Below, one piece after another: positions 3,001-9,000 of a stretch of DNA of 47,740 nt (position 1 is the first letter of the stretch; every line of letters begins with the position of its first letter). This DNA is from Vulcanimicrobiota bacterium (lineage in GTDB: Bacteria; Vulcanimicrobiota; Vulcanimicrobiia; Vulcanimicrobiales; Vulcanimicrobiaceae): the NCBI GenBank assembly GCA_003135555.1, contig PLCF01000069.1:1-47740 (forward strand). Direction: 5' to 3'. A program made the position numbers.

Positions 3001-6000
3001 GTCGATCCACAACCCCAACAAGCACCGCTTGGCCGAGCGGGAGTCCGAGCGGCCCACGCCGGGCGAAGTCTGGATCGCGCCTCGCGACGAACGGAGGACG
3101 ACCCTCGTCGCCGGCCGCGCGATCCCCGGCGTCCGCGCGATCCGCCGCCGCACCGCATGGCGTCTGCTCGACGAGGCCGGCCGCGACGTCGAGTCCGCCC
3201 ACCTGGACCACGCCGTCGAATCGTTCCTCTGCAACCCCGCCTTCCAGACGGTCATAAGAGCACAGGAATGAAATCGTGTTAGACCCCGAAGAGACGGTGA
3301 TGGACCGAGCTCAGCAGCAAATTCCGCGTGCATCCATCTCGTTGCGAGGTCGGACCGGGGGGCCCCACGCACAGCGTGGGGGGCGCGTAGCCGGGGGCGG
3401 AGCGCCGTGACAATGATGGTAGAGCCGTTGCCGCAGGCGAGCCAGCGGCTGAGCGGGGTCGGCGAGATGTACACGATCGCGACCTTGGGTTCCCATTCGG
3501 CGCTGCAGATCCTCAAGGGCGCCCACGACGAAGGCTTCAAGACGCTGGCCATCGCGAGCCGCGAGACCGAGCGCCTGTACCGTTCGTTCGCGTTCGTCGA
3601 CGAGGTCATCACGATCGCGCGCTACAGCGACTTCATGGGGTTGGTGCCCGAGCTCGAGAAGCGCAAGATCATCATCGTCCCGCATGGATCGTTCGTCGCG
3701 TACCTCTCGCTCGAAGAGCACAAGAAGATGACGATCCCGTACTTCGGCAACAAGGCCGTGCTCGACTGGGAGGCGAGCCGCGAGTTGCAGCGTGATTGGC
3801 TGCTGCGCGCGGGGCTCAAGCTGCCGCGCCAATTCAAGACCGGCGCCGAGATCGACCGGCCCGTCATCGTCAAGCTGTACGGCGCGCAGGGCGGCAAGGG
3901 CTACATGTTCTTACGCGACGCGATGGACTTCGAGGAGCGCGCCTCGCTGCTCGCGCGCCAGAACTACATCCTCCAAGAGTACATCATCGGGGTCCCGCTC
4001 TACATCCACTACTTCTACTCGCCGTTGACCGGCAAGCTCGAAGTCATGTCGATGGACCGGCGCTACGAGACCAACGTCGACTCGCTCGGCCGCATTCCGT
4101 CCCAAGCGCAGGCGGCGATGGAGATCGATCCCTCCTACGTTGTGGTGGGCAACCAGCCGATCAGCTTGCGCGAGTCGATGCTCGCCCAAGCGTACCGGAT
4201 GGGGGAGGACGTCGTGCGCGTCAGCCAGGAGATCTGCGGTCCCAAAGGGCTCTTCGGCGCGTTCTGCATCGAGACGATCATCACGCCGGATACGAGTTTC
4301 TACATCATGGAGATTTCGGCTCGGATCGTCGCGGGTACGAACCTCTTCATCGACGGCTCGCCCTACTCGTACTTGAACTACAGCGAGCCGATGTCCACCG
4401 GTCGCCGTATCGCTCGGGAAATCAAGAATGCGCTGCTCTCCAACTCGCTCGACGCGGTGCTCGACGACAGTACGATTGCGCGTCTCTAGACTCGCCGCCG
4501 CGCTGCTGGCTGCGCTCGTCTTGATCTTGCCGTCGCTCCCGGCGCGTGCGGCGCTCGACATCGACCCCGCGCAGCTCTACAAGCAGATGAAGGCCGCGTA
4601 CGACAAGGGCGCCGCAAACGGCTGGCATCTAGCGGACCAGCTCGACTACTTCTCTGCGGTGCTCGACGCCGGGCGGGGCTACGAGCTGCGCCGCCGCGAC
4701 GACCCGCAGAACCTCGCGATCAAAGGGATCGCGGTCGACCTCGCGACCCAGCTGTTCTACGATCCGCTCATCAACAACGACGCCGCCGGGTGGTACATTC
4801 GTCTGTCCGCGGAGGCCTGGCAGAGCGACCCGGATCGCGGTCCGAAGGCCCGCGCGCTCATGGCGAAGCTCGACGCCGAGGAGACCGATCCGGGCGTGCT
4901 CGCGCGCGACGCCGACGTCGACAGCGCGGCGCTTGCGAAGGCCTACCCCGACGACGTGCAGGCGCTGCTGGGCCAGGTCGAGGCCGACATGCGCGCCTAC
5001 AACCTCACCCAAGACCCGCGCTGGCGCACCACCGCGCTCCAGCGCGCCACGCAGCCCGACTTTCCGATCGCGTCCGTGCCGCAGGACTTCGGCAAGGTGT
5101 TCTTTCCGATCGTCGACGCGGCGCGCAATGCCGCGCCGGGATATTCGCCGACGGAACGTGAGGCTGCGCGCATCGTCGCCTCGCATCGCGCGGCGGCGCA
5201 CGGCCTCCCGGTGATCGGTCACGTGGTCTCGCACGAAGCGTTTCTGATCATCACGGCGCCGGCCGACGAATACTTCGGGCGCACCAAGCTCTCGCCGATC
5301 GGCGTGCGCAACGAGCTCGCGCGCATCGGCAGATACCTCGACGCCGGCTGGGGCGGCCAGATGACCAAGGACACGGTCTGGGTCGTCGACTCGCTCGACG
5401 ACTGGCAACACCAGTACCCGCGTGACTACGAGCTGCCGCGGCTCTACAAGCGCGCCTTCGACACGCTGGCGCGCGAGGATACGCCCGAGGCGAAGCAGGC
5501 GCAAAGCCAAGTACGCCGGACGCTGCTGGTCAACTACCCGATGTCGAGCGAGGCGCGGGCCTTCCTCTCGTCGTAGAGGTCAGACGTGGTCGCCGAGCCA
5601 TTCGATCTGCGGGGGACGCTGGCGTCCTACGACGCGAGCCGCCTGACCCTGTGTTCGATCGGCAGCCATTCGGCGCTCGAGGTCGCATCGGGCGCGCGCG
5701 CGCAGGGGATCCCCAACCTCATCGTCGTCGAGCGCGGCCGCAATCGCACCTACGATACGCACTACACGCGCCGCTTCGACGAGCCGGCGCGGGGGTGCGT
5801 CGACGCGACGCTCGAGGTCATACGCTTCGCCGACATCCTCAACGACGACATACAGGACCTGCTGCGGCGCGAGAACGCCGTCTTCGTCCCCAATCGCTCC
5901 TTCGAGGTCTACCTGCACCAGCAGTACTCCTACGCCGAGATCGAACGGCGCATGCGCGTGCCGTTCTTCGGCAACCGCCGGCTACTGCGCGCCGAAGAGC

Positions 6001-9000
6001 GCGATGAGCCCGACAACCAGTACGCGCTCATGGACCGCGCCGGGATTCGCTATCCGCGCCGGCTTTCGTCGCCGGATCAGATCGATCGGCTGGTGATGGT
6101 CAAGGCGCCGCACGCGAAGGTCTCGTTCGAGCGCGCGTTCTTCCTGGTGCGCGACGAGAGCGAGTACACGCTAATGGCGCAACGGCTGCTCGATTCCGGG
6201 ACCGTATCGCTGGAGGGCTTGCGCGGTGCGGTCATCGAGGAGTTCGCGCTGGGTCCGACCATCAACCTGAACTTCTTCTGGTCGCCGATCCTGGGCGAGC
6301 TGGAACTGATGGGGACCGACACGCGCCGTCAAACGAATCGTGACGGCTTCGTGGGGCTCCCGTTCAATCAAGCGCGCGACCTCGCCGACGAGCCGGTGCG
6401 CATGGAGGAGGCCGGACACATCGCGGCCACCCTGACCGAGTCGATGCTCGAGAAAGCGTTCGACCTGGGCGAACGCTTCGTGCACGCGGCGCGTGAGACC
6501 GACGGCATCGGCGTAATCGGCCCGTTCGCGCTGCAATGCGTCATCGTCAGCGGGCCGCCCAAAGATTTCATCGTGTACGACGTCTCGTTGCGCATCCCGG
6601 GCTCGCCCGGAACGCGCTACACGCCGTATTCCGCCTACCGCTGGGGACGCGACGTCTCGGTCGGCGAACGAATCGCGATGGAACTCGTCTGGGCGCGCGA
6701 CCGCGGGCGCTTGGCGGACGTGCTGACATGACCGTCGTGATCCTGGACTTCGGCTCGCAGGTCAGCCAGCTGATCGCCCGCCGCGCGCGCGAGGCCAACG
6801 TCTATTCCGAGCTGCTGCCGCACGACACGCCATGGGACGAGATCGCCAAACGCGAGCCGTCGGCGATCTTGCTCAGCGGCGGGCCGGAGTCGGCACTCGG
6901 CGACGATGCGCTGGAGTGCGATCCGCGGGTATATTCCAGCGGGTTGCCGCTGCTCGGTATCTGCTACGGCATGCAGCTGCTGGTGAAGCGCTTCGGCGGC
7001 ACGCTCGTGCGGCTGGGCCACAGCGAGTTCGGTCCGGCGCAGCTGAGCCTCGATCGGGTCGACTCACCGTTGTTCCTGGGCGTGCCGCCGCAGTCGCGTG
7101 TCTGGATGTCGCACGGCGACTCCGTCACCGCCGTGCCGCCCGCTTTCACCGCGCTCGCCCACACCGAACGGTCGGCCGTCGCGGCGATGAGCGACGACGC
7201 GCGCCGCATCTATGCGGTGCTGTTCCATCCCGAGGTCGTGCACACCGAAGCCGGAACCGCGATCCTGAAAAACTTTCTGCACACGATTGCGGCGATCGCG
7301 CCGTCGTGGCGCATGGATTCGTGGGTCGAGGACGCGATCGAAAAGGTACGCGTGCAGGTCGGTGATGCGAACGTCCTCTGCGCGCTGTCGGGCGGCGTCG
7401 ACTCCGCGGTCGCCGCGACGCTGGTCGCGCGCGCGATCGGCAAACAGCTGACGTGCATCTACGTCGACACCGGCCTGATGCGCAAGAACGAGTCGCTCGG
7501 CGTCGTCGCCGCCTTTCGCGACGTGCTGCACCTCAATGTCATCCACGTCGACGCGCGCGAACGTTTCCTCGCACGCTTGGCCGGCGTCGCCGATCCCGAA
7601 GAGAAGCGCATCCGAATCGGACACGAGTTCATCGCGATCTTCGAAGAGGAGGCCAAGAAGATCCCCGACGTCCGCTTCTTGGTGCAAGGGACGCTCTATC
7701 CCGACGTGATCGAGTCCAAGACCCCCGGCTCCAAGGCGGGGCACAAGATCAAGTCGCACCACAACGTGGGTGGCCTGCCCGAGCGCATGGCACTGGGGTT
7801 GGTCGAGCCGCTGCGCGCGCTGTTCAAAGACGAGGTGCGCGAAGCCGGGCGCGTTCTGGGTCTGCCCAACGCGATCGTCGAGCGCCAACCGTTTCCCGGC
7901 CCCGGGCTGGCCGTGCGGATCATCGGCGAGGTGACGACCGAGCGGCTCGACGTCGTGCGCGCAGCTGACTGGATCGTCACCAGCGAGATAGACGCGGCGA
8001 TGAGCGGGTTGTTGCCACGGCCGTGGCAGTACTTCGCCGTGCTGACGCCGGTGCAAAGCGTGGGCGTGATGGGCGACGGGCGCACCTACGCCAACCTCGT
8101 TGGCGTGCGCGCGATCACCAGCGAGGACGGGATGACCGCAGACTGGGCGCGCCTACCGCACGAGCTGCTCGAGCGAATCTCGGCCCGCATCGTCAACGAA
8201 GTCCCTGGCGTGAACCGGGTCGCCTACGACATCACCTCAAAGCCCCCCGCCACCGTCGAGTGGGAGTGACGGCGATGGTGGCCCATGCTTCGACGGGGCT
8301 CAGCGTGACAATGAAGACCAAGTAATCACCGTCGGGGCGTCGTTGCGGACGACCTGGCCGCGTACGCGTAGGTGCGCCAGGTGCGCGAGCGTCTCCGCCA
8401 CCGCGAACTCTTGATGCTCGGGCGGTAGCTGGTCGAAGCGGTCGCCGCGCCGGCGCCATTTGAGCTTGCCGGCGACTTGCGCCGCGGTGTGCGGGCCGTC
8501 GTCGAGCGCGTGGATCACGTCGCCTTCGCGCGTCGCTTCGTGGGCCAGCAGCTCTTCGACGCGGCGCGCGAGATCGGGGAACGCTTCGCCGTGCGCGGGT
8601 AGCGCGCCGCTGGTCTCGAGTGCGCCGACGGCGCGCAGCGAGGCGACATAGTCACCCATCGGGTCCCGGCCCGAGTCGTACCATACGCCGACGTGCGGGG
8701 TGACCGGATCGAGCACGTGATCGCCGGTGAAGGTGCGGCCTGAGACCGAATCCACGAAGCACACGTGACCCGGCGAATGCCCCGGCGTCCACATCGCCCG
8801 CAGGCGGCCGACGCGCTCGCCGTCGGCGAGCATCCGCGTCGGCTCGACGTAGTCGAACCGGTCGTACGGCGATTCACTCCCGTCGTCGGGCTCGACGGGC
8901 AGGCCGTTGCGCCGTAGCCACGCGTCGGCGATCGAGTCGTCATCGCCGCGCCGCGCCTTGCGCGCCTTGAGGAAGTTCCAATCCAATTCGTGCATCGCCA

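What a model noticed while it worked through the whole genome (the two positions that open the first line are those of the whole stretch)
3413..6731. Archaeal-type PurP pair inside the purine operon of a bacterial order that also keeps PurH
g01210 and g01212 are two full-length PurP (FAICAR synthetase) paralogues set between purL-purQ and guaA. PurP is the formate/ATP-dependent, folate-free enzyme held to be an archaeal signature; here it is a fixed trait of Vulcanimicrobiales and co-exists with the folate-dependent PurH (g00662).
Evidence so far: g01210 matches PF1517 PurP (2r84, E 2e-99) and 2r7k (E 3e-85); g01212 matches 2r7k (E 1e-51), both full length. DUF1246/1297 in 94-96% of 352 order genomes, 0.5% of bacteria, 43% of archaea; PurH family in 85% of the order; the paralogues lie within two genes in at least 115-128 order genomes; DHFR absent in 5 of 5 closed relatives.
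(Added by a program. Inside this text positions count along the whole contig: contig position 1 is position 1 of the stretch shown here. "Call 12" and the like, gene names such as g00115 and contig names such as C1 are that model's own, and its searches are not shown. The text may have been shortened before it was handed on; [...] marks where a part breaks off. The agent that wrote the report below was given it as the finding of a first reader that could run no searches.)

Follow-up and report, generated by a model that had tools for sequence, protein, structure and literature searches.

The report
PurP pair where guaB is missing
A whole class of soil bacteria carries a pair of "archaeal" purine genes of unknown job and lacks the enzyme (IMP dehydrogenase) that textbooks give as the entry to guanine nucleotides, and the same either-or pattern in other microbes suggests that the pair is an unrecognised, still untested way to make the precursor of GMP.

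Summary
The two genes are real, full length and class-wide, but they are not FAICAR synthetases of the proven kind: g01210 is PurP II and g01212 is PurP III, the archaeal pair whose members were inactive alone. They do not replace PurH: 121 of 121 order genomes keep both. What these genomes lack is IMP dehydrogenase (GuaB): 0 of 188 class genomes have it, against 30 of 63 in the rest of the phylum, although guaA follows the pair in the operon. The exclusion recurs: GuaB in 1 of 41 pair-bearing genomes of a Patescibacteria class (60 of 107 without), 0 of 12 in a small-genome archaeal phylum (63 of 139), absent in Sulfolobus and Methanosarcina, present in M. jannaschii (PurP I). A genome with GuaB has a decayed PurP II beside guaA. 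Best reading (0.6, inferred, no assay): PurP II+III make XMP from AICAR, bicarbonate and ATP and feed GuaA, bypassing IMPDH. Against: one genome has both, Korarchaeum is reported to have both, salvage is not excluded, and PurP III's AICAR-phosphate site is altered. No paper in the library makes this link.

The parts
28..2028 (+). purL (small type; its start lies at or beyond the contig end)
   Evidence: TIGR01736 E 1e-144 from profile position 98
2025..2822 (+). purQ
   Evidence: TIGR01737 199 bits, over cut-off
2819..3271 (+). 150-aa PurS-like protein, probably two PurS units in tandem (inferred)
   Evidence: no family hit itself; an orthologue hits Pfam PurS weakly, E 0.015; present in 20 of 20 class loci; halves do not align by BLASTP
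3467..4489 (+). g01210 = PurP II (cluster Ib); ORF opens at 3407, likely start 3467
   Evidence: DUF1246+DUF1297; 2r84 E 2e-99; P-loop QGGKG, N258, H27, S94, S266, R314
4476..5576 (+). orfX (g01211): class-specific protein with an N-terminal hydrophobic stretch, a variable insertion between the pair; ORF opens at 4428
   Evidence: no family; Atlas clusters are unnamed Vulcanimicrobiota proteins, weak TPR lead 0.86; between the pair in 9 of 18 class loci
5586..6731 (+). g01212 = PurP III (cluster II)
   Evidence: DUF1246+DUF1297; 2r7k E 1.3e-51; loop two residues longer (HAKVSFERA), H258, H27, R314; model pLDDT 93.5, TM 0.85-0.87 to 2r7k/l/m
6728..8269 (+). guaA, GMP synthase; start overlaps the stop of PurP III
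   Evidence: NF000848 747 bits; ATGA overlap in the sequence
11538..12809 (+). purD
   Evidence: TIGR00877 408 bits; follows guaA closely in most relatives
21247..22596 (+). purF
   Evidence: tblastn E 1e-110
24951..26015 (+). purM
   Evidence: sequence read; used as query; name from recalled motifs and position
26025..27152 (+). GNAT domain fused to PurN-like GAR formyltransferase
   Evidence: PF00551 E 3e-31 + PF00583; orthologue in G014 reaches the TIGR00639 cut-off

Best explanation
The PurP II + PurP III pair supplies XMP to the adjacent GMP synthase without IMP dehydrogenase. PurH makes IMP for the adenine branch; the pair makes the guanine-branch precursor from the same AICAR pool. Shown: gene identities, operon, co-retention with PurH, absence of GuaB and its mutual exclusion with the pair. 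Inferred chemistry: an ATP-grasp site activates bicarbonate (carboxyphosphate) and carboxylates the 5-amino group of AICAR, as PurK does to AIR; a second ATP-dependent step activates the carbamate, as in carbamoyl-phosphate synthetase and dethiobiotin synthetase (recalled), and the carboxamide nitrogen closes the ring to XMP. Two ATP-grasp paralogues, probably in one hetero-oligomer, would explain why II and III occur together and are inactive alone with formate. Which subunit does which step is not known. Odds: the pair stands in for GuaB in some way about 0.7; by AICAR + bicarbonate about 0.55-0.6; one step per paralogue about 0.3.
For: No full-length IMPDH/GMP-reductase-family gene in 121 of 121 order genomes (best 42 bits over 117 of 345 positions); TIGR01302 at E<=1e-40 in 0 of 188 class genomes, 30 of 63 other phylum genomes; own genome: no tblastn hit with GuaB. 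guaA lies with the pair in 16 of 20 class loci and in 8 of 80 outside loci. Patescibacteria class: GuaB in 1 of 41 with both paralogues, 60 of 107 with none; phylum draw 0 of 11 vs 51 of 178, five of the 11 new; small-genome archaeal phylum 0 of 12 vs 63 of 139. Named controls: S. acidocaldarius and M. acetivorans have the family, GuaA and no GuaB; M. jannaschii (PurP I) has GuaB. GuaA found in 4 of 4 pair-bearing Patescibacteria tested. Exceptions point the same way: G346 has a full GuaB and a broken PurP II remnant directly upstream of guaA; G445 and G515 keep only PurP III and have an IMPDH-like gene. PurH kept in 121 of 121 and lying in the pair's locus in 34 of 80 outside loci, 3 partial; G711, whose operon has no purH, has split AICARFT + IMPCH genes elsewhere and no GuaB in 56 contigs read. 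Xanthine-oxidase-family subunit not found in 36 of 121 order genomes, two of them single-contig. Both paralogues keep H27, K156, E200, R314 and an acid at 310 in 94 of 94 sequences each. Complex II+III: weak support, 0.39 against best control 0.00, runs agree in at least 82% of contacts, partner pLDDT at least 82; that mark was reached by 116 of 157 solved and 2 of 215 mismatched pairs, and homo-oligomers of the family are solved, so it may pass by likeness. PurP II/III had no FAICAR activity alone (PMC3261824, PMC6486802). The one cultured member of the group needs high CO2 even when heterotrophic (PMC9758169; compatible, not specific).
Against: No biochemical test. G493 has the pair and a full GuaB. 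Brown 2011 states K. cryptofilum has the pair and all IMP-to-GMP genes (data not shown); Thermococcales are recalled to have both IMPDH and the pair (not confirmed). S. solfataricus extracts put formate into IMP and Crenarchaeota have no PurH/PurO (PMC3261824), so there the pair, or an unknown enzyme, must also give IMP. 33 of 63 other genomes of the phylum have neither GuaB nor the pair, so GuaB can be lost without it. The cultured strain grew only with yeast extract (PMC9758169), leaving salvage open. PurP III has lost R264 (T in 21 of 23 class rows and 120 of 120 close homologues; K in 71 of 71 others) and, outside the class, S94 (Y in 70 of 71), which argues against III binding the nucleotide in the ordinary way. 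Genomes are related and most are incomplete; Fisher values overstate. Synechococcus also fails the strict GuaB test without the pair, showing that divergent IMPDHs can be missed by TIGR01302, though the broader PF00478 search found none in the order.
Confidence: 0.6

Rival explanations
1. The pair is a formate/ATP-dependent AICAR formylase (hetero-hexamer as Cruz et al. speculated), a folate-free back-up to PurH as PurT is to PurN; GuaB absence has another cause.
For: Closest characterised relative is MJ0136; H27 and R314, which touch the formyl group, are kept (PMC3261824); Sulfolobus extracts use formate; position in the pur operon.
Against: Neither PurH nor the pair is ever lost in 121 genomes, down to 1.9 Mb; no PurT over cut-off in the own and 5 closed genomes and PurU in only 2 of 5 closed genomes, so no steady formate supply is evident; does not explain the exclusion with guaB in three separate samples and the controls; II and III inactive with formate alone.
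Confidence: 0.15
2. The pair serves the guanine branch by other chemistry: a different C1 donor (such as carbamoyl phosphate), exchange of C2 on IMP/FAICAR, or PurP II as the catalyst with PurP III a structural or regulatory subunit.
For: Fits all distribution data; PurP III's phosphate-binding residues are altered; PurP II is lost first where GuaB is present.
Against: PurP III keeps invariant K173, E219, Q317, D332, R336 and its own invariant PGSP loop in 94 of 94 rows, as expected of a catalytic site; ATP-grasp folds activate carboxylates, and the nearest non-PurP folds are biotin carboxylases (weak, E about 1e-10).
Confidence: 0.13
3. The class gets guanine nucleotides by salvage or by a hypoxanthine-xanthine-XMP detour or an unknown IMP oxidase, and the pair does something else (IMP cyclohydrolase, AICAR recycling).
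For: Cultured strain needs yeast extract (PMC9758169); 85 of 121 genomes have a xanthine-oxidase-family subunit; 33 relatives lack both systems; Brown 2011 proposed a cyclohydrolase role.
Against: 36 of 121 lack that family; recalled-motif scans of the own genome (84% complete) found only PyrR-, Prs-, Apt- and PyrE-like phosphoribosyltransferases; PurH with an intact IMPCH domain makes a cyclohydrolase redundant; no other conserved gene lies in the operon; guaA is kept in the operon.
Confidence: 0.12

Closest known systems
Archaeal PurP II + PurP III pair (cluster Ib + II; P. furiosus PF1517, PDB 2r84-2r87, and PF0421)
   Same: All published diagnostics (P-loop, N258 vs H258, loop length, H27, R314); one copy of each; near pur genes; no shown activity.
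   Different: In a free-living bacterial class, beside guaA, always with PurH; PurP III has R264 replaced by T; described in print as archaea-only (PMC6486802: none in 1,266 bacterial genomes).
PurP I, FAICAR synthetase of M. jannaschii (MJ0136, PDB 2r7k-n)
   Same: Fold (TM 0.85-0.87 for PurP III), AICAR- and formyl-contact residues in PurP II.
   Different: PurP I is single, goes with PurO and no PurH, and its host has GuaB; PurP II has Q297E and D316-G317 to V-A; PurP III differs at 230, 258, 264, 310.
PurK (N5-CAIR synthetase); carbamoyl-phosphate synthetase; dethiobiotin synthetase
   Same: Works-like model only: ATP-grasp carboxylation of a 5-aminoimidazole ribotide with bicarbonate (PMC3261824 sec. 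11, passage seen); activation of a carbamate by a second ATP and ring closure (recalled).
   Different: Not members: separate families; the order has its own PurK-like gene (identity inferred from score); no such reaction is known for AICAR.
IMP dehydrogenase (GuaB)
   Same: Proposed product (XMP) and place in the pathway before GuaA.
   Different: Unrelated fold, NAD-dependent oxidation of IMP; not found in the class.

Membership tests
PurP family | DUF1246 + DUF1297 over full length, ATP-grasp fold | tested here: met
PurP family | H27 and R314 conserved | tested here: met
   94 of 94 rows in each paralogue
PurP I / FAICAR synthetase (cluster Ia) | Single PurP in a genome with no PurH1 | tested here: not met
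   two paralogues and intact PurH
PurP I / FAICAR synthetase (cluster Ia) | Reaches an NCBIfam equivalog cut-off for the ligase | tested here: not met
   best 383 of 580 and 221 of 556 bits
PurP I / FAICAR synthetase (cluster Ia) | Formate + ATP + AICAR to FAICAR activity | not testable with these tools
   needs an assay
PurP II (cluster Ib), g01210 | P-loop (K/R)GG(K/R)G and N258 | tested here: met
   QGGKG (first position Q, not K/R) and N258 in 94 of 94
PurP II (cluster Ib), g01210 | AICAR-phosphate contacts S94, S266; partner PurP III in the genome | tested here: met
PurP III (cluster II), g01212 | Loop two residues longer than the P-loop, H at 258 | tested here: met
   KAPHAKVSFERAF vs KLYGAQGGKGY; H in 23 of 23 class rows
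PurP III (cluster II), g01212 | AICAR-phosphate contacts largely conserved | tested here: inconclusive
   S94, S266 kept; R264 (role recalled) is T in the class
Archaeal signature gene | Absent from bacteria | tested here: not met
   188 of 188 class genomes; 44 of 151 and 13 of 191 Patescibacteria draws
IMPDH-independent XMP synthase (proposed) | Hosts keep GuaA and lack GuaB | tested here: met
   one exception with both (G493)
IMPDH-independent XMP synthase (proposed) | XMP formed from AICAR + bicarbonate + ATP | not testable with these tools
   needs complementation and assay

The most novel reading that the evidence does not exclude
PurP II + III are a two-subunit XMP synthase that builds the xanthine ring directly from AICAR and bicarbonate with ATP, a second de novo route to GTP that needs no IMP dehydrogenase, used by a soil bacterial class, part of the Patescibacteria and many archaea; in lineages without PurH the same pair may also accept formate and give IMP, closing the 'missing cyclohydrolase' gap.
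Probability: 0.55. Interest if true: 0.93.

Novelty: new variant of a known kind. Interest (0 to 1): 0.83.

Why it matters
The job of PurP II and III has been open since 2008. A clean genomic rule (pair present, guaB absent, guaA and purH kept) turns it into a one-plate experiment with mesophilic bacterial genes. If right, IMP dehydrogenase is not the only de novo entry to guanine nucleotides, C2 of guanine in these organisms comes from CO2 rather than folate, metabolic models of many archaea and Patescibacteria have a wrongly filled or unnoticed gap, and thousands of 'FAICAR synthetase' annotations are wrong.

Tried and rejected
PurH degenerate or lost in part of the order: rejected. Pair standing in for a missing GAR formyltransferase: rejected, a PurN-like domain is fused to a GNAT after purM. 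Riboswitch or known RNA in the window: none but three tRNAs; 3272-3470 folds at z -2.8 but was not followed. orfX as part of the system: absent from between the pair in 9 of 18 loci. Plasmid carriage: no match. Cluster-member names could not be looked up. A careful tree did not finish; trees are quick IQ-TREE runs with SH-aLRT only and no named Sulfolobus, Pyrococcus or Methanosarcina sequences, so no donor is claimed. Literature confirmation of IMPDH in Thermococcales: not found. Words searches of earlier findings for a guaB link: none.
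Full report
Observation. The window holds purL, purQ, a 150-aa PurS-like gene, g01210 (3467-4489), an unknown gene, g01212 (5586-6731) and guaA, whose start overlaps the stop of g01212. 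Both proteins are full-length DUF1246+DUF1297 members and match only the three solved PurP sequences. GC at third positions (0.90, 0.87) equals that of neighbours.

Which PurP. Brown et al. 2011 (PMC3261824; section 14 part 1 and passages read) give diagnostics: cluster I has a (K/R)GG(K/R)G loop and N258, cluster II a loop two residues longer and H258. g01210 has QGGKG and N; g01212 has HAKVSFERA and H. They are thus PurP II and PurP III of Cruz et al. 2019 (PMC6486802; parts 1-5 of 7 read). These papers report that only PurP I (MJ0136) is a shown FAICAR synthetase, that P. furiosus II and III were inactive alone, that II and III occur together in 61 archaea, 10 of them with PurH, that a hetero-hexamer was speculated, and that no PurP was found in 1,266 bacterial genomes. 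Residue numbers follow the 2r7k alignment; E200 is labelled E201 in the script; the roles of K156, E200, R264, Q297 and E310 are recalled.

Distribution. DUF1297 is in 121 of 121 order genomes and 188 of 188 class genomes, against 1 of 63 elsewhere in the phylum. PurH is in the same 121, full length with catalytic motifs in the own genome (motifs judged from Brown's list and recall). In 20 class loci of up to 20 kb the order purL-purQ-purS-II-III-guaA-purD is kept; II and III both lie in 18, adjacent in 9, split by orfX and other genes in 9; guaA is in 16. PurP II is 74-96% identical to the window copy, more than purL, purQ or purD. In quick trees each paralogue of the class is one clade (SH-aLRT 100) whose inner split follows taxonomy, sister (97 for II, 91 for III) to a clade of Woesearchaeota/Nanoarchaeota- and Patescibacteria-titled sequences: one old acquisition of both genes, donor not determined. 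Among the 80 loci nearest the sister group, III follows II in 69, purH lies in 34 (3 partial) and guaA in 8.

The missing gene. Because the pair sits with purH and before guaA, I asked whether guaB is present. PF00478 finds no full-length member in 121 of 121 order genomes (99 have only weak partial hits, best 42 bits). TIGR01302 at E<=1e-40 finds 0 of 188 class genomes and 30 of 63 others. tblastn of the own genome with a relative's GuaB gives nothing below E 0.19. Among 14 named controls the family rings in M. jannaschii, S. acidocaldarius and M. acetivorans; GuaB is missing in the last two and in Synechococcus, present in the other 11; GuaA is in all 14. Five outside pair-bearing genomes lack GuaB. 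In the class of G254 (151 genomes) GuaB-family genes are in 1 of 41 with both paralogues, 2 of 3 with a single paralogue and 60 of 107 with none. In its phylum (191, overlapping the class draw in part) 0 of 11 and 51 of 178. In the small-genome archaeal phylum of G253 (151) 0 of 12 and 63 of 139. The E<=1e-40 counts include CBS-less IMPDHs and possible GMP reductases; over the curated cut-off they are 50, 13 and 31. Kin are not independent, so the Fisher values are not probabilities of the hypothesis.

Natural experiments. G346 has a full GuaB and a stop-broken PurP II remnant just upstream of guaA. G445 and G515 keep only PurP III and carry genes that best match IMPDH; the orphan III of G445 and G432 have long branches. 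G711 has the II-purA-III operon without purH that earlier AI notes read as a PurH replacement, but AICARFT and IMPCH-like genes lie side by side elsewhere, and no IMPDH-family hit appears in the 56 contigs read, about 0.97 Mb with overlaps; smaller contigs may remain. G493 has both systems.

Mechanism. Shown: presence, order, exclusion. Inferred: XMP is AICAR plus one carbon at the level of CO2, so an ATP-grasp enzyme that binds AICAR can reach it without a redox step. PurK already carboxylates the 5-amino group of AIR with bicarbonate and ATP (PMC3261824, passage seen). Closing the ring needs the carbamate activated, for which carbamoyl-phosphate synthetase and dethiobiotin synthetase are recalled precedents; that gives work for two paralogues. 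Both keep the ATP-grasp lysine, glutamate and acid at 310 and the H27/R314 pair; each has its own invariant loop after R314. The PurP III model is confident (pLDDT 93.5) and its nearest non-PurP folds are biotin carboxylases, a weak pointer. The II+III complex got weak support: 0.39 against 0.00, contacts agreeing in at least 82%, partner pLDDT at least 82; 116 of 157 solved and 2 of 215 mismatched pairs reach the mark, and it may pass by likeness to solved homo-oligomers. PurP III's altered phosphate site (R264 to T or K; S94 to Y outside the class) tells against a simple second nucleotide site.

Rivals. A formate back-up to PurH does not explain the guaB pattern, and PurT and PurU are absent or patchy. 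A xanthine detour cannot be general: 36 of 121 genomes lack the xanthine-oxidase-family subunit. Salvage is not excluded: the cultured strain grew only on yeast extract and needs high CO2 (PMC9758169, passages seen); whether that strain lacks guaB was not tested by name. Against the best reading stand G493, the Korarchaeum statement, the formate labelling in Sulfolobus, recalled IMPDH in Thermococcales, and 33 relatives with neither system.

Novelty. Searches PurP+FAICAR+archaea, Eremiobacterota+purine, purP+bacteria+horizontal+Patescibacteria, formaminoimidazole+bacteri, IMP dehydrogenase+Sulfolobus+absent+guaB, PurP+XMP, archaea+lack IMPDH+GMP+AICAR+bicarbonate, IMPDH+Pyrococcus+archaeal+Crenarchaeota, Vulcanimicrobium+IMP dehydrogenase+guaB+purine biosynthesis and Pyrococcus+IMPDH (112) showed, in their listings, no paper on bacterial PurP or on a link to guaB. 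Passages of PMC4177761, PMC6797443 and PMC2718504 were seen and add none. Zhang et al. 2008 and the supplements of all papers were not read; they may bear on whether bicarbonate was assayed and on which archaea have guaB. Eight earlier AI notes report the pair in Microgenomates-type genomes without mention of guaB, so the bacterial occurrence is not unique to this window.

Verdict. Known gene pair, new host class, and a new, testable function: a stand-in for IMP dehydrogenase. Interest 0.83.

Noticed in passing
window 26025-27152: PurN-like formyltransferase fused behind a GNAT domain, with an insertion after the HPSFLP motif, directly after purM; similar split matches in 5 of 5 closed relatives.
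   Followed up: partly
window 2819-3271: Divergent 150-aa PurS-like gene with two NP motifs, likely a tandem PurS, in 20 of 20 class loci; escapes Pfam and NCBIfam.
   Followed up: partly
window 4476-5576: Class-specific, probably exported protein of no known family inserted between the pair in many genera of one family; weak TPR lead.
   Followed up: partly
window 3272-3470: About 140-195 nt gap before PurP II folds better than shuffles (z -2.8); no Rfam match; much shorter in most relatives.
   Followed up: partly
L219 1477-1764 (G346): Decayed PurP II remnant directly upstream of guaA in a genome with a full GuaB.
   Followed up: yes
L307 8455-9962 (G711): PurH split into adjacent AICARFT (310 aa) and IMPCH/MGS-like (192 aa) genes, in reversed domain order, away from the pur operon.
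   Followed up: partly
L104 / L237 (G174): Lone PurP II-type gene in another class of the phylum, from a different branch of the tree, in a 72% complete genome with a partial guaB.
   Followed up: partly
G449 C9, C20: Both paralogues read through many TGA codons, so the pair also occurs in a lineage with a recoded TGA.
   Followed up: no
L179, L182, L184, L120, L123, L180: Records titled Methanosarcinales, Nitrospirota or Gammaproteobacteria group with Woesearchaeota or Gracilibacteria sequences and have small genomes where known; titles may be wrong.
   Followed up: no
phylum draw: 33 of 63 genomes in other classes have neither GuaB nor the pair; their guanine source is unexplained.
   Followed up: no
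window 12812-14452 (-): Protein with an aspartyl-protease domain and a signal-like N-terminus after purD.
   Followed up: no
window 35169-35240, 46303-46374, 46384-46457: Three tRNA genes.
   Followed up: no
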